Source: Candidatus Freyarchaeum deiterrae (GTDB lineage: Archaea; Asgardarchaeota; Jordiarchaeia; Jordiarchaeales; Jordiarchaeaceae). From it: a stretch of DNA of 64,000 bases. A program made the translations under genes and the position numbers. Shown piece by piece: positions 18,601-59,005 of this stretch; position 1 is the first letter of the stretch; every line of letters starts with the position of its first letter. Where the stretch lies: assembly GCA_037305845.1 (NCBI GenBank), contig CP147778.1:2400001-2464000 (forward strand), written 5' to 3'. Under the pieces are notes generated by a model that was not told where the DNA came from, did no database searches, and was given only the letters and a program-made list of their open reading frames with translations.

Positions 18601-19864
18601 TTGGAATAGACGACTCTACAGCGTCTACAGTGGCTACTTCCAATTCTCCGAAGAAATCTTTAACCAAGGACACGACATAGACGAAATTCCCTTCCTCACC
18701 GAATACAACAGCACACTCCTCTCATTATACGACGGAATAATAATATTCGACCCATTAAAAGGCTTCACCCCCCAAGAAAACGCCACTCTCCACAGCCTCC
18801 TTAACAACGGGACAGGCATTCTTATTTGTGTAGATCCAGAAAACAATTGTAATTGGACCGCGGTGAACATGATAACACAACCCTACGGAATTACTGTCGT
18901 TGCCAACCAAACGGAACCAATAACAATCACCTCGGCTAATATGTCTCAATCACACCCTGTTACCAGTAACCTTAGCAGTATAGTAATGGACTCCGCAGCA
19001 ATTCTAGATGTTAATACAAGTCTGGGAGCGGAAGCGCTTGCCAATACTACTAATGGAACCGTAATAGCCGCTGCGAATGTGGGTTATGGAAAACTTCTGG
19101 TTATAGGCGACTCCGCAATTTTTGACAGCCGCCACTTAAACCTTTCAGACAACTCTCTCCTTGCGTCTAACGCTATTAACTGGCTACTATCAAACAGAAT
19201 GATACTCAATGTGGAGTTATCATTGCCCAATCCTGACGGCAAACTCTATATCGGAGACAATTTTTATGCTTCAATACATGTCACCGACAGGTACGGGCAG
19301 GATGTTTCAAGTAATATAACCATGTATACAATTTTCGTTTTACCCAACGGAACCATTTTTCCGATGTTTGCATTTCACTACCAAGGAGGATGGTATACCA
19401 CCTTCTTCTTCACATACTTTACAAATGTAACTGGGAACTACAGCATGGTCATCTACGCACATGCTAACAACTATACCACCACACACTACGTTTACAATTT
19501 CGAAGTGCAACCCGCCCGGCTGGCTTTAGCTCCGCTCTTTTATTTCCCTCAAGCATCCAGGGACTATGCGATTTTCGGATTTACCTTCTTAGGAGTAATA
19601 GTCTCGATATTCACCTCAGCCTACCTATTAGAAAGGAGGCGGCTCCGCAAGAAAACACTAATACCTGAACTCAATAGAGAACTTAGAAACACCCTAAGAA
19701 ACTCCGTGAATGAGGTAAGAGCGGTTAACAAGGAAATCGACCGAGAATTATCCAAAAAAGACATAGACGACTTCGATAGAATCAGAATAATACACGAAAA
19801 ACTCGGAAAACTCAGAAGGGCACTCGACAAAGCCAAAAACGTAGCAGAACACGTAGGTGAGTAA
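15632..19864 (+). CDS. Membrane-anchored subtilase (S8)-like glycoprotein with GIFT/GldG-like domain; catalytic Ser absent
   Basis: Signal peptide, LLDSG, HGT.VAG, AAAGD, GTLAAAGYVAG; RLFFDSIHN...GKLLVIGDS..F...DN..LA.N..NWL; C-terminal TM and coiled tail; many NxS/T sequons. Confidence 0.85.
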   Translation: MKLSKKTIAILMILAFTATFIAGFTILPQNIYPAKSMNTGGLDSTSKIDPYLVSMVNSGGFPNSYSTKMIIVFGETNFSSGLQALNSTFPDIVVEKVYDYIPAVAIESPLSNVQKIASLSQVSKVWYDYPIHLEPKSLVQSGVSSKEVAYDPTIENLWSMNLTGSGVIVALLDSGIDASHPDLNNLGNNSNTTKVVESVSMVEYDPFTYDLNGHGTYVAGIIAGTGNASNGTYKGIAPQAQLFNVKVFDSEGLSFFSWILSGVEWSVSHGADIIVVPFAGPGYPDDPLCTEIDKAVESGVTVIAAAGDDGPAYTSVGSPGMALSAITVGNYNKSSGLVCSNSSRGPSLYMWMDPDIVAPGYNITSCRASLPNLGVNISLPSLPAGGYGNPLDGNYTTATGTLAAAGYVAGTAALLLQAFPFVTPETLKVAMMKTAIDLGEDSNTQGAGLLDGNATYNYLRGLEGPIGNISRASTPALPYTGFFFTNDATSQLSTYCIVGTYGTFVGMQTQNATSGLNNTHLLQGRFGVKYNGLDNVTLFLLTTLYREMHSTTILGGDYQRALTVLGNGNILIVIAVDCWNNTNATGAFRITINLINIGSTALNNVSLLTCWNIDLFLNESNHISDNHAQYNSTDDLIYANDSNYDYPTEQIFVGFKGNISTAHEVGDNNTVFEDFLNDQLNNTSNYNGSIGLAMKWNLTGQLDPGSNVGFVGALGVGGDYGQMLDAANNILAAGVQNSTDLCVVNASIERTGKVHTPFPSESLILNIGNTVTNASVFFFSNKSTDESSIFYTEIFQYQNLQPFAFREISTSWEPTNSTVYTVGWVVAELSNFLTPGQLLSGNLSFNLSETYLLDNFIIRDVFIGTSPNCSILFPTLIPNKPFELNFPLDFAYTNLTVVSTYNLENVQVAYSGNATQLFNGTPTVLIRGDYANILITLNATYFPHPGYYNGIINITANGALIGSVNISFNLRYPEGRLFFDSIHNEISLTSWNRRLYSVYSGYFQFSEEIFNQGHDIDEIPFLTEYNSTLLSLYDGIIIFDPLKGFTPQENATLHSLLNNGTGILICVDPENNCNWTAVNMITQPYGITVVANQTEPITITSANMSQSHPVTSNLSSIVMDSAAILDVNTSLGAEALANTTNGTVIAAANVGYGKLLVIGDSAIFDSRHLNLSDNSLLASNAINWLLSNRMILNVELSLPNPDGKLYIGDNFYASIHVTDRYGQDVSSNITMYTIFVLPNGTIFPMFAFHYQGGWYTTFFFTYFTNVTGNYSMVIYAHANNYTTTHYVYNFEVQPARLALAPLFYFPQASRDYAIFGFTFLGVIVSIFTSAYLLERRRLRKKTLIPELNRELRNTLRNSVNEVRAVNKEIDRELSKKDIDDFDRIRIIHEKLGKLRRALDKAKNVAEHVGE

Positions 19865-33266: not shown

Positions 33267-34214
33267 TTAAACCTGTGCTCCGCAACTTGGGCAGAAGCGA
33301 CTTCCTGGTGGAACCTGAGTTTTGCACTTTGGACAGGTTTTTCCGCCTCCCAGTTGGGCGCCACAATTGTTACAGAAACGTGCATTAGCGGCTATTTGCG
33401 CTCCACACTTCGGACACGTTGTCAAAGCGACTTGAGGACCTTGCGGTTGTTGAAGCAACTGTGGCATTATTACCATTCCGACGCCTGCTCCAGCGGAGCC
33501 TCCTCCTTTTCCCAGAGATTCCGCAGCGCTTTTGGTGGTTTCTAGGGTGGCTAGGCGGTCACCTTGAACTTGGCCTGTTTGCATCCAGAATAGTCTATCT
33601 CTGTATTCTGGAGTTGTGTCCATTCCCTCGAATTTGAGATCCACGAGGTCTAAGCCGATTCTTCCGAACTGCTCTTTGATTGTGGTTTTCACTTTCATAC
33701 TGCTCTCATTGAGTTGTGTGAAAGCGTCTCTCAGGGTAAAGCCCGACACATTTTCGATGAGTTTTTCTAAGATGAAGCCTCTGATAAATTCGCTGACAGC
33801 ATCGGTTGTGAACGCCTTAGCGTTTCCTACAACCTCAACCACAAATAGTTTGGGCTCCTCTACTTTGAAATAATACGCACCGTGGAACATTAGCGGTGCA
33901 AGTTCTTGGGTTTGGCCTCTGCCACCAAATTTTCCCTGAAACTGCGAAGTGGAAATGAATATAACATCAGATGTAAACACGTTTTTGTTAAATCCTGTCA
34001 ATTTTTCATATGCTTTGGTTAAGAGGGGTAGTTTCATAGTGGCCAGCACATGTCTTCCTGGGCCAAAAACATCGTAAGCTTTTCCGTCTCTGAAGAACAC
34101 TGCCTGCTGGTTTTCAGCAACAATTAGTGCTGCTCCCCAAGTTAGGTTGTTGTCTGGAAATCGCCAAACAATATCTTGTTTTCCAGCTCCACGCCATTCT
34201 ATTACTTGTGGCAC
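33267..34214 (-). CDS. SPFH/band-7-like (YdjI-like) protein with double zinc ribbon
   Basis: IVWRFP, LIVAENQQAVFFRDGK..DVFGPGRH; C-terminal CPKCG..FCNNCG..CPKC..FCPSCG. Confidence 0.88.
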   Translation of the reverse strand: MPQVIEWRGAGKQDIVWRFPDNNLTWGAALIVAENQQAVFFRDGKAYDVFGPGRHVLATMKLPLLTKAYEKLTGFNKNVFTSDVIFISTSQFQGKFGGRGQTQELAPLMFHGAYYFKVEEPKLFVVEVVGNAKAFTTDAVSEFIRGFILEKLIENVSGFTLRDAFTQLNESSMKVKTTIKEQFGRIGLDLVDLKFEGMDTTPEYRDRLFWMQTGQVQGDRLATLETTKSAAESLGKGGGSAGAGVGMVIMPQLLQQPQGPQVALTTCPKCGAQIAANARFCNNCGAQLGGGKTCPKCKTQVPPGSRFCPSCGAQV

Positions 34215-34235: not shown

Positions 34236-34827
34236 TTATTCGAATTTGAGCATATAGCTTCTTCTATCTCCAAACTTTTTGTCAATATCGTCAAGTGTTC
34301 GTCTCAATGAAAAGATCTGCTGGTAAGCATTATCAAATTTACTCGATTCGAGTTCATCTTTAAGAGACTTTATTTCGCCTTGAAAAGTTTGGATATCATC
34401 TAAAATCGATGAATCGAATTCATACATTCTGTCAAGTTCTGGTTCACGAATTTTTACTGAGTCAAAAAAACCACCATAACCATAGTCAGCGTGGTTTATT
34501 CTCTCAGCGACCCTGTCTACGAGCGCCATCAATCTATCCATCTGCTCCCAAGTATTATTGACTTTATAATCCACAAGCATCTCCTGTACAAGATTAAGGT
34601 CACTTTTAGAATCACTGAACTGCTTGAACATGTAGTTCCGTAAAGCTTTATCCGCCTCTCTACGTATTTCCTTTGCCTTGTATCCATGTTGGCCGAGCAG
34701 AAGTAACTCTTACTGCTCAGTAACCAGGGATTACAAAGGCAACTTTCTCCAATAGGCTTCTGTTGGACTGTTCTCTTACTTCGCCTTTAATCTTCTCTGC
34801 TGTTGTTTTCTCTTTCTTACTAAACAT
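34236..34827 (-). CDS. Conserved helical hypothetical protein, two exons (34827-34720 and 34688-34236), 186 aa after splicing
   Basis: Spliced product MFSKKEK..LLEKVAFVIPGY/HGYKAKEIRREADKALRNY..ADYGYGGFFD.VKI.E.ELDRMYEFD; exon lengths 108 and 453 nt are both multiples of 3. Confidence 0.8.
34689..34719 (-). other. Predicted 31-nt BHB-type mRNA intron
   Basis: Helix GGUU/GGCC, bulges ACU and AAC, intron stem GAGCAG/CUGCUC, exon stem AUCC-U/A-GGAU. Confidence 0.75.
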
Positions 34828-34943
34828 TTTAACAACCCCATAATCGTTGCCGTACACATAAACTTCATACATCATGCTCTTAAAAAGATTTCATTACGAG
34901 CAAGAATAATAGAAATGCTCTTAAAAGATTTACTATGGATTAG

Positions 34944-36344
34944 CAAGAAAGCCCTAGTCCCTTTAGGGTGGGGGATGAATTGCGGGAGTTTAAATACCGA
35001 AAAAGGAGGAAAAAGGGGGAGTGAAAAGGGTATGCGGATAAACTGGGGTTTGAAGCCTACCCGCATCGGACTCGTTATGAATGAGGGAGAGTTGCGCATT
35101 TGAGAAGGACTAACACCTTCCGGCTGGTTCCAGCAAAGGAGCAGAAGCAGAGACTTTTCAGTTTAGCCGACAACTGCTCCAAAATGTACAACGAGATAAA
35201 CCATAAACGCAGACAATCATTCTTCTCAGGCAGATTCGACTGGAACACCGACGAACAATACCACAAATACAAGGGGTTAGTCGGCTCCGCCACCGCCCAG
35301 CAAATCACACAAAAGAACAACGAAGCCTGGAAATCATACTGGGCACTCCTAAAGAAGTGGAAAAAGGGAAAGGTGGAGAAGAAACCCAAACCTCCGAGAT
35401 ACTGGAAGGATCGCGAGACTGGAAAAAGACCCCTTAGAATCCTGGTAAGGTGCGACAGCTACCATCTGGAAGAAAAAGCCCTCAAACTCCCTTTCGGACT
35501 AAAAACGCAGTGGAGGGGCAGAAACAGGTGGAAAGGCGGTAAACAGGGCAGACTCGAAATAACCTATGACGAACTCTCGGAGAAATGGTACGCCTACATG
35601 CCAGTAGAGATCAAACCTCCTCTACACCAGCAACAGCAGCAGCTGAAAGGAAAAGAAAAGGAGGCGTACGTGGATCTGGGAGTGAAAGTCCCCATAATGG
35701 CGAGTATAGATTGGGAAGTCTTCGGCTACCGGGCGAATCCCATGCTCTCGGACTGGTGGTACTGGACACACAGAATAGCGGAACACCAGTCAATCCTGAA
35801 AGATGTAAACAATCGGTCAACCTCAAAGCTGTTAAAATCCTACCATAGGATGAGGCAGAGAAGATTCAGGAACAGTGTCAACGTGATGGTGAGGGACTTC
35901 GTTGAAAAGTGCTGGAACAGGGGAGTCTCGGAGATAGTCTGCGGAGATTTGAGAGACATAAGAAGCAGCGCCAACTTCTCAAGGAGAAGCAACTCCATGA
36001 TTCACAACTTCTGGTCGGTAGGATACATAGTAAGGAGGATAGAAGAAGTAGCAGAGGAGTACGGGATAAAAATAACTAGAGTTGATGAGAAAGGAACATC
36101 ATCAGAATGTCCGAGGTGCGGCTCAAAAAGAATCGTTAGAAGCAAAAGAATGTTCAGGTGCCGGGACTGCGGACTGGAAGCACACCGAGACGCCGTAGGC
36201 TGCGTAAACATAGGGCTTGCTCACCAACAAAAAGAAAAAGAAAAGGATGCGGAAGCCGTTAACAGGGCGGTGACACGCCCCACACTTCTAACAATAACTG
36301 CAGAAGTGTATAACTCCCTACCTTTCAAGGAGGGGAGTATGTCA
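34944..36344 (+). mobile_element. IS200/IS605-family (IS1341-like, tnpB-only) element
   Basis: Left-end hairpin region AAAGCCCTAGTCCCTTTAGGGTGGGG; right end CTCCCTACCTTTCAAGGAGGGGAGTATGTCA; no tnpA; ends approximate to a few nt. Confidence 0.8.
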
Positions 36345-36356
36345 GTAATCAGGTAA
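35100..36356 (+). CDS. tnpB: RNA-guided endonuclease TnpB
   Basis: RTNTFRLVP, YVDLG (RuvC-I), IVCGDL, VDEKGTSSECPRCG..FRC.DCG..AHRDAVGCVNI (zinc finger, RuvC-III). Confidence 0.92.
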   Translation: MRRTNTFRLVPAKEQKQRLFSLADNCSKMYNEINHKRRQSFFSGRFDWNTDEQYHKYKGLVGSATAQQITQKNNEAWKSYWALLKKWKKGKVEKKPKPPRYWKDRETGKRPLRILVRCDSYHLEEKALKLPFGLKTQWRGRNRWKGGKQGRLEITYDELSEKWYAYMPVEIKPPLHQQQQQLKGKEKEAYVDLGVKVPIMASIDWEVFGYRANPMLSDWWYWTHRIAEHQSILKDVNNRSTSKLLKSYHRMRQRRFRNSVNVMVRDFVEKCWNRGVSEIVCGDLRDIRSSANFSRRSNSMIHNFWSVGYIVRRIEEVAEEYGIKITRVDEKGTSSECPRCGSKRIVRSKRMFRCRDCGLEAHRDAVGCVNIGLAHQQKEKEKDAEAVNRAVTRPTLLTITAEVYNSLPFKEGSMSVIR

Positions 36357-57949: not shown

Positions 57950-59005
57950 CTGGAGAAGTATAGGTTAACTAAGGCAGTAACTCTTCATGGATGATCATGT
58001 AAACTACCTCAAACTGAACTGAATAACCTTCTAGAAAATGTCGGAGTGAGAAGAGACCCCTCAGGAAGACTAATTGGAGGAATCGGGGAAGACGCCGCCG
58101 TGGTCAAGATTCGGGATGATCTGGTACTCATAGAAACTGTTGATTACATGACCCCGAACGTTGATGATCCCTATATCCAGGGCAAGATTGCTGCGGTAAA
58201 CGTTACGAACGATGTGTATAGTGTAAATCTACTTGATTTACATGCATAAGCAATAGGCGCAACCGATGTTGTGAGCTTCTTAGCGATACTCGGAGTTCCT
58301 GAAAATATGCCTATTAAAATAGCTGAGGGAATGCTGAAGGGAATAAACGATTTACTAAGCGAACTGGGCACTACAACCATCACCGGCGGTCACACCATAA
58401 TAAATCCCTGGCCCTTAGTCGGAGGAGTGGCTTCAGGAATAGCTCATCCAGACCAGATAGTAACCCACAAGAATGCTCGACCCAACGATGTGGTGCTGCT
58501 TACTAAACCGCTGGGTACTCAGCCAGCGATGGCTTGTTATAGAGGACTCCTAGATCCCAGCGTCGCAGAGCAAATACTGGGATTAATGTCCAGAAAGGCA
58601 GCAGAAGAAATTGTTCAAAAGGGGATTGACATTATGACTAGGACAAATAAGCCGGTGGCTGAGGCGATGTCAGCTGTGAAACCTCATGCCTCTACAGATG
58701 TCACCGGATTCGGACTTCTCGGGCACTCTCGAAATTTAGCAGGTGAAAGCAAGGTTAACATTGACATTCACACAATTCCCATAATCAAAGGCACTTTGGA
58801 GCTTTCGGATCTTTTCGGATACGGACTTCAGTCTGGTGAGTCAGCGGAAACCGCGGGTGGAATGATTCTAATTGTTTCAGAAGACCAGAAGGAAAGCTTG
58901 GAATCAGAGTTGGACAAAGGTTCTGTTAATCACTACGAAATAGGTACCGTGAGGAAGGGGTCTGGAAAAGTTGATACCAGCAAGGCGGAAATACTTGAAG
59001 TTTGA
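57950..59005 (+). CDS. selD: Selenophosphate synthetase: selenoprotein (UGA 57992-57994), two exons (57950-58219 and 58250-59005), CTG start, 341 aa
   Basis: YRLTK...HG-U-SCK, GEDAAV, TVDY.TP.VDDPY..GKIAA.N..NDVY/AIG, GGHT, TKPLGT, TDVTGFGLLGH, ETAGG. Confidence 0.92.
58220..58249 (+). other. Predicted 30-nt BHB/BHL-type mRNA intron in selD
   Basis: Helix GUGU/GCAU, bulges AUA and AAG, intron stem GUGUAAAUC/GAUUUACAU; contains an in-frame TAA. Confidence 0.8.

What the first reader, a model, noticed from the sequence alone, without database searches (positions are those of the whole stretch)
34680..34732. Second BHB intron (31 nt) in the gene upstream of the SPFH/zinc-ribbon gene
Seen in sequence (minus strand): an unannotated exon from ATG 34827 ends ..FVIPGY-TGA, and the downstream ORF continues in another frame as HGYKAKEIRREAD. 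The transcript AUCCCU-GGUU-ACU-GAGCAG-(12 nt)-CUGCUC-GGCC-AAC-AUGGAU forms a full BHB: 4-bp helix with two GU pairs, two 3-nt bulges, and an exon stem with one mismatch. Cutting after the 2nd bulge nt removes 34719-34689, deletes the stop, fixes the frame and gives IPGYHGYKAKE..R (186 aa). From recall, that matches the IPG(F/Y)xGYxxxExRRExD motif of this family. Caveat: an alternative register (UGGU/GCCA) would remove 33 nt and create a stop.
Basis: partly seen in the sequence, partly recalled or inferred. Interest (0 to 1): 0.9.

Follow-up and report, generated by a model that had tools for sequence, protein, structure and literature searches.

The report
Ancient tRNA-type intron in Asgard mRNA
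A conserved protein gene of an Asgard archaeon (order Jordarchaeales/Freyarchaeia) is broken by a 31-base insert shaped like the introns archaea cut out of tRNAs, and comparison with relatives indicates it is spliced out of the messenger RNA, which the papers I could search report for only two archaeal mRNAs.

Summary
Removing 34719-34689 (minus strand, 31 nt) at the bulge-helix-bulge (BHB) cut sites joins a 36-codon exon to a 150-codon exon and gives 186 aa.

The family fixes the junction: 117 of 117 matched homologs have the spacing that a 31-nt removal gives. Nine distinct junctions from Jordarchaeales carry a 27-31-nt insert at the same PGY|HGY boundary. All three reading phases occur, which a single frameshift or read-through rule cannot explain. 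BHB pairing holds in 123/135 cells (slid controls 37-59), with compensatory changes. Both exons are under purifying selection. Two or three related lineages lack the insert exactly.

The 33-nt rival register gives a stop in all nine. The genome encodes both splicing-endonuclease subunits and RtcB. My motif-free sample found 9 more inserts in 8 of 484 conserved genes, including cbf5 at the crenarchaeal position.

No spliced RNA was found, so splicing is inferred. The protein's function is unresolved (helical bundle, conserved SPFH neighbour). This scan has already noted such mRNA introns in other genes of this genome and in other Asgard genomes.

The parts
34720..34827 (-). Exon 1 (36 codons, ATG 34827 to ..IPGY). 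Gene callers miss it or call it as a separate 37-52-aa ORF.
   Evidence: Relatives have in-frame stops just upstream of the equivalent ATG. pN/pS 0.11-0.40 uncorrected.
34689..34719 (-). 31-nt BHB intron; starts with an in-frame TGA and shifts the frame by +1.
   Evidence: Not repeated elsewhere in the genome.
34682..34731 (-). Whole BHB motif: exon stem 34731-34726/34687-34682, central helix 34725-34722/34694-34691, bulges 34721-34719 and 34690-34688, intron helix 34718-34713/34700-34695.
34236..34688 (-). Exon 2 (150 codons plus stop, begins HGYKAKEIRRE); annotated in databases as truncated 112-131-aa proteins.
   Evidence: pN/pS 0.13-0.20 uncorrected.
33267..34214 (-). SPFH/Band-7 plus double zinc-ribbon gene, 21 nt downstream; the conserved neighbour in the Jordarchaeales and Odin-type loci examined, probably on the same transcript (inferred).

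Best explanation
This is a protein-spliced, tRNA-type (BHB) intron in a protein-coding mRNA. The pre-mRNA folds so that the end of exon 1 (GGUU) pairs with the end of the intron (GGCC) between two 3-nt bulges. The cell's two-subunit splicing endonuclease EndA cuts after the second base of each bulge (AC|U and AA|C), and RtcB joins the exons. The joined message reads PGYHGY and encodes a 186-aa helical-bundle protein that probably works with the downstream SPFH/zinc-ribbon protein. Without splicing, translation stops after residue 36, so the gene needs splicing to give its product. The intron was most likely gained once in the Jordarchaeales ancestor, inherited vertically while its loop drifted (27-31 nt), and lost precisely two or three times, probably by recombination with a copy of the spliced RNA. 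Shown: sequence, frame, homolog boundaries, structure conservation, selection, presence of the enzyme genes. Inferred: cleavage and ligation in vivo, the enzymes' identity as agents, the direction and route of loss, and the protein's role.
For: 117/117 matched homologs have the 2-residue spacer. The insert lies at the same codon boundary in 9 distinct junctions from both families of the order; lengths 27, 28, 29, 30, 31; all carry a stop or frameshift. With boundaries set by protein homology, 123/135 cells are paired against 37-59 for slid registers; the central helix is 36/36; the first four inner pairs switch among G-C, A-U, C-G and U-G. The proline codon is CCT in 9/9 intron-bearing junctions (its T closes the exon stem) but CCC/CCG in two intronless clades. 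Both exons are under purifying selection. Intronless relatives join the exons exactly at the predicted cuts; L156 differs from the window's spliced junction by one base in 21. AU tests reject one clade for intron-bearing rows (p=9e-5) and for in-group intronless rows (p=0.0014). Two EndA paralogues, one with the catalytic Tyr/His/Lys motif and one lacking the His, and RtcB are in the genome. Motif-free census: 6 of 8 frame-breaking inserts have a perfect BHB at the best-aligning boundary, and 0 of 198 control ends do. Precedent with cDNA support: cbf5 (PMC2738675).
Against: No spliced RNA or junction peptide was seen (zero exact matches in JGI contigs, which are mostly DNA). The BHB is not the predicted lowest-energy fold in any of the nine sequences. 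The central helix has two G-U pairs and the exon stem a mismatch at its second pair. The 33-nt register has similar computed energy. No Pfam RVT_1 reverse transcriptase was found in this genome, so the route of precise loss is unexplained. Related genomes are not independent samples.
Confidence: 0.93

Rival explanations
1. Translational recoding: the ribosome frameshifts, reads through or hops over the hairpin, with no RNA splicing.
For: A stable hairpin (z -3.79) sits right at a stop codon, and both parts are under selection.
Against: Homologous inserts are 27, 28, 29, 30 and 31 nt, which covers all three phases. Frameshift or read-through would add about 10 residues inside a motif whose spacing is invariant. 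The conserved geometry is exactly 4-bp helix plus two 3-nt bulges.
Confidence: 0.02
2. A broken or split gene: the insert inactivated the gene, or the 36-aa and 112-131-aa pieces are made separately, and the hairpin is incidental.
For: Gene callers annotate two short ORFs. No RNA evidence.
Against: Both exons stay open and under purifying selection across an order. Exon 2's conserved HGY..E.RR segment lies upstream of its first start codon. The structure is kept through compensatory change.
Confidence: 0.02
3. A real EndA substrate used as a switch: the RNA partitions between the productive 31-nt register and the 33-nt register (which creates a stop), or is cut without ligation, so the intron mainly throttles expression of this gene and the downstream SPFH gene.
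For: The two registers are within about 0.1-2 kcal/mol, and the alternative always gives a TAA. A regulatory role was proposed for the cbf5 intron (PMC2738675).
Against: The alternative register lacks the closing exon pair in 9/9 and a closed 5' bulge in the second family. Repeated loss of the intron argues that it is dispensable. This rival still needs productive splicing to make the protein.
Confidence: 0.03

Closest known systems
cbf5 pre-mRNA BHB intron of Desulfurococcales and Sulfolobales (Watanabe 2002; Yoshinari 2006; Yokobori 2009, PMC2738675)
   Same: Short (16-44 nt there, 27-31 nt here) ORF-less intron inside a conserved coding motif; BHB at the borders; cut between the 2nd and 3rd bulge base; two-subunit EndA; one ancestral gain with independent lineage-specific losses.
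   Different: A different gene, unrelated to RNA modification; an Asgard host; it falls between codons, not inside a catalytic codon; it is one of many mRNA introns in the genome, not a lone case. Splicing was shown by cDNA for cbf5 and is not yet shown here.
HVO_1309 5'-UTR BHB intron of Haloferax volcanii (PMC7714728)
   Same: An mRNA processed by EndA at a BHB motif.
   Different: That intron is in the untranslated leader; this one interrupts the reading frame.
Non-canonical tRNA introns of Freyarchaeia/Atabeyarchaeia (PMC11291895; bioRxiv 10.64898/2026.10.13.758758)
   Same: Same lineage, same motif, same presumed enzymes; very high intron load (92-95% of tRNA genes).
   Different: In the passages I searched, those papers report tRNA introns only and no introns in protein-coding genes.
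LIMLP_15305 family (NCBIfam NF047596), for the host protein
   Same: Similar length (175 vs 186-188 aa); E = 1e-12 over residues 48-183.
   Different: Score 48 bits against a cut-off of 210, so a distant relative only; I found no function reported for it.

Membership tests
Archaeal BHB (EndA-spliced) intron | 4-bp central helix between two 3-nt bulges on opposite strands at the exon-intron borders | tested here: met
   Core 4/4 in the window and 36/36 over nine junctions; bulges ACU/AUA/AUG and AAC/AGC.
Archaeal BHB (EndA-spliced) intron | Flanking helices: intron-side and exon-side (strict hBHBh') | tested here: met
   Intron helix 6 bp. Exon helix is 1 pair, 1 mismatch, then 4 pairs; the mismatch is present in 9/9, so the motif is near-canonical and not perfect.
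Archaeal BHB (EndA-spliced) intron | Cuts after the 2nd base of each bulge coincide with the boundaries required by intronless homologs | tested here: met
Archaeal BHB (EndA-spliced) intron | Host encodes splicing endonuclease and ligase | tested here: met
   Two PF01974 genes (one with the catalytic Tyr/His/Lys motif) and one RtcB.
Archaeal BHB (EndA-spliced) intron | Spliced RNA or cleavage demonstrated | tested here: inconclusive
   No spliced junction in JGI contigs; raw RNA reads cannot be searched with these tools.
cbf5 pre-mRNA intron family | Located in cbf5, between the 1st and 2nd base of the catalytic Asp codon | tested here: not met
   The host gene is not cbf5. This genome's own cbf5 has a separate 32-nt insert at that position.
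Mobile, homing-endonuclease-carrying archaeal introns | Intron-encoded ORF or copies at other sites | tested here: not met
   31 nt, no ORF; no other copy longer than 13-15 nt in the genome.
LIMLP_15305 family (NF047596) | HMM score above the curated cut-off of 210 bits | tested here: not met
   48.3 bits for the intronless homolog P0002.

The most novel reading that the evidence does not exclude
Jordarchaeales/Freyarchaeia routinely splice protein-coding mRNAs with the tRNA-splicing enzymes. About 1.5-2% of conserved genes (8 of 484 sampled, a lower bound; dozens per genome if that rate holds) carry obligatory BHB introns that are old, vertically inherited and still being gained or precisely lost. 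That would be an mRNA-intron system without a spliceosome in a lineage close to the ancestry of eukaryotes, and this intron is a well-resolved example of its gain-and-loss history.
Probability: 0.8. Interest if true: 0.85.

Novelty: new variant of a known kind. Interest (0 to 1): 0.75.

Why it matters
The papers I could search name only two archaeal mRNAs spliced at a BHB motif, cbf5 and the leader of HVO_1309 (PMC7714728), and the Asgard intron papers cover tRNAs only. An order-wide intron in an unrelated gene, among at least nine others in a one-seventh sample of the same genome's genes, would make mRNA splicing routine in an Asgard lineage. It means Asgard gene catalogues contain systematically truncated or split proteins: dozens of database entries of this family are 112-131 aa instead of about 187. 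It gives a prokaryotic model of exact intron loss, and it provides small, directly testable substrates for Asgard EndA and RtcB, the homologs of the eukaryotic enzymes for tRNA splicing (RtcB also ligates XBP1 mRNA; own knowledge). It does not show any descent of spliceosomal introns from these. The library lacks most subscription journals, so prior publication cannot be excluded.

Tried and rejected
(1) Search for spliced RNA: a degenerate spliced-junction pattern found 0 matches in JGI contigs. The five Logan assemblies of this organism all keep the intron. I could not tell which runs are RNA, so this is no evidence either way.
(2) A homology-free genome-wide census (BHB plus hexamer coding score against a wrong-frame join) showed no enrichment, e.g. 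57 vs 53. It was too unselective and I dropped it for a homology-based census.
(3) DNA comparison with a 310-kb sample of congener G003 (173 kb aligned) found only this insert in the window's genome and one in G003, probably because congeners share most introns.
(4) Target-site duplication as a general origin: here the intron's last six bases echo the last six of exon 1 and the core 4-mer is self-complementary, but only 1 of 8 other inserts examined (ahcY) shows this. Rejected as a general rule.
(5) Protein function: no Pfam family; Foldseek no match at E<=0.001; best VIA-align Z 12.2 at 7% identity, within the range of generic helical bundles; Atlas hits are all hypothetical proteins.
(6) The MAFFT alignment of the introns was one column out of register between the two families, so pair counts were anchored on the protein-defined cut sites.
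(7) The census missed this very gene because the reference ORF was called short, so it undercounts.
(8) The sigma-70 promoter scan was uninformative for an archaeon.
(9) No RVT_1 match in the genome.

Full report
**Observation.** On the minus strand, ATG 34827 opens 36 codons that end FVIPGY, and TGA follows at once. A second frame resumes 31 nt later as HGYKAKEIRRE and runs 150 codons to the stop at 34236. Removing 34719-34689 gives 186 aa. Only 3.3e-6 of boundary pairs in this genome match this well. The region folds better than shuffles (z -3.79), but the predicted minimum-energy fold opens the central helix. Five independent read assemblies contain the same insert, so it is not an assembly error.

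**Host.** The window lies in a single-contig 3,576,204-bp genome whose closest proteins and loci are Freyarchaeota/Jordarchaeia. By size and kinship it is probably the complete 3.58-Mbp Freyarchaeum genome of PMC11291895 (inference). That paper reports introns in 92-95% of tRNA genes and, in the passages searched, none in protein genes.

**The junction is fixed by homology.** Full-length intronless homologs (188 aa, 79-83% identical to exon 2) contain the N-terminal segment and read PGYHGY with no gap. The family is large (1,093 clusters), and all 117 proteins in which the motif could be matched have exactly two residues between P-x and GY. This selects a 31-nt removal over the 28- and 34-nt removals that also open the frame. 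Of the 31-nt windows, only those starting at 34719-34717 keep PGY.GY, and the BHB rule gives 34719, which yields the homologs' His.

**The intron is shared across the order.** Nine distinct junctions from both families of Jordarchaeales carry an insert at exactly this codon boundary, of 27, 28, 29, 30 or 31 nt, each with a stop or frameshift. All three phases occur, so no single frameshift or read-through rule can repair them, while excision at the BHB sites repairs all. With the alignment anchored on the protein-defined cuts, 123 of 135 cells are paired, against 37-59 when the register is slid by 1-3 bases. The central helix is 36/36. The intron helix keeps pairing through G-C/A-U and G-C/C-G/U-G exchanges. 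The proline codon is CCT in all nine, and its T closes the exon stem, whereas two intronless clades have CCC or CCG. These genomes are related, so the counts are descriptive. Both exons are under purifying selection in intron-bearing lineages (uncorrected pN/pS 0.11-0.40 for exon 1 and 0.13-0.20 for exon 2).

**The rival register.** The 33-nt register has similar computed energy but gives PG-stop in all nine junctions. It lacks the closing exon pair in 9/9, and its first inner pair is A-G or G-G in the second family. Only the 31-nt register is conserved.

**History.** The Odin-type and other outside Asgard homologs examined have no insert. On a tree of exon and SPFH protein sequence rooted on the Odin-type rows, intron-bearing rows occupy the whole second family and the basal branch of the first. 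Intronless groups (G001/3/4/5; L139-L158; L156) are nested among intron-bearing ones; the tree needs 3-4 changes. AU tests reject a single clade of intron-bearing rows (p = 9e-5) and a single clade of in-group intronless rows (p = 0.0014). One gain and two or three exact losses is the simplest reading, given that the introns share their 3' end. Repeated gain at a self-complementary site is not excluded. Exact loss suggests an RNA-templated route, as proposed for cbf5 (PMC2738675), but no RVT_1 gene was found in this genome.

**Machinery.** The genome has two EndA paralogues, one with the catalytic Tyr/His/Lys motif and one without the His, as expected for the two-subunit type that tolerates relaxed motifs (PMC6379350). 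It has one RtcB.

**Not a lone case.** I sampled 800 kb of a distant complete Asgard genome, aligned its proteins to this genome and looked for breaks without using the motif. Among 484 conserved genes there were 8 frame-breaking inserts, and 6 had a perfect BHB at the best-aligning boundary: nadE, pcm, ahcY (two), cbf5 and a TIGR00375-like gene. ppsA had a relaxed motif, and one call was poorly supported. An end-extension search added hypD and fbp. All four ends with score gains of 60 or more had a strict BHB, against 0 of 198 low-gain control ends (2,633 boundary pairs). That is 9 inserts in 8 of 484 genes, a lower bound because the method missed the present gene. The cbf5 insert lies between the first and second base of the catalytic Asp codon, the position described for Crenarchaeota, and cbf5 is broken near residue 45 in all 11 Jordarchaeales genomes searched. 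The selD insert at 58220-58249 in this window also has a 4/4 core and a 9-bp inner helix and restores NDVYAIG. Earlier notes of this scan list pcm, hypD, fbp, rtcB, gatE and others in this genome, and similar introns in other Asgard genomes. I had read those for this genome before the census; the census itself did not use them.

**The protein.** The intronless homolog folds as a helical bundle (mean pLDDT 82). It has no Pfam family, no specific structural match, and only a sub-threshold hit to NF047596. It lies 21 nt upstream of an SPFH/double-zinc-ribbon gene, an order kept in the Jordarchaeales and Odin-type loci examined. My best guess is a soluble partner or cargo of the SPFH membrane scaffold; this is inference from gene order only. 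The intron splits the family's most conserved motif.

**Mechanism and standing.** Most likely EndA cuts at AC|U and AA|C, RtcB ligates, and a 186-aa protein is made (0.93). Splicing itself was not observed: the junction scan found nothing. It works like the cbf5 intron and meets the testable features of a BHB intron, but it is not a cbf5 intron. Published precedents found are cbf5 and the Haloferax HVO_1309 leader; five searches that could have returned a report of Asgard mRNA introns did not, within a library that lacks most subscription journals. Verdict: a new variant of a known kind, interest 0.75.

Noticed in passing
window 58220-58249 (+): 30-nt BHB insert with an in-frame TAA in selD; core 4/4, inner helix 9 bp, no exon-side helix; removal gives NDVYAIG. 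Not compared with relatives.
   Followed up: partly
G000:C1 near 1,483,445 (-); reference L118:9550-10449: cbf5 has a 32-nt perfect BHB insert inside the catalytic Asp codon, the same position as the crenarchaeal cbf5 intron, and is broken at this point in all 11 Jordarchaeales genomes searched but not in two other Asgard genomes. Shared ancestry, transfer or convergence is open.
   Followed up: partly
G000:C1 1,619,889 (+), 2,244,134 (+), 1,877,064 and 1,876,927 (-), 2,285,375 (+), 1,661,667 (-), 2,580,004 (+), 1,055,908 (+): Frame-breaking inserts with strict or relaxed BHB in nadE (33 nt), pcm (32), ahcY (56 and 29), a TIGR00375-like gene (32), ppsA (30), hypD (28) and fbp (73).
   Followed up: partly
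L048 about 19742-19773 (-) (G003:C5): Congener G003 has a 31-nt perfect BHB insert at PVDI|DGI in a small gene (roadblock/LC7-like by recall) where the window's genome has none: the reciprocal presence/absence pattern.
   Followed up: partly
   Followed up: partly
window 35100-36356 (+) and 34890-34990: An IS200/IS605-type tnpB gene sits between this gene and the divergent lipoate-ligase-like gene; relatives L156 and L159 lack it there. A hairpin near 34950-34980 and a roughly 16-nt AT-rich near-repeat at about 34931 and 34891 lie just upstream of exon 1.
   Followed up: no
window 34731-34689: The last six intron bases echo the last six bases of exon 1 and the core 4-mer is self-complementary through G-U pairs, so a short duplication would build the central helix by itself; seen in only one other insert examined.
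   Followed up: yes
window 34827 onward; tree: The window's copy of this gene pair sits on a longer branch (0.15) than its congeners (0.03-0.06).
   Followed up: no
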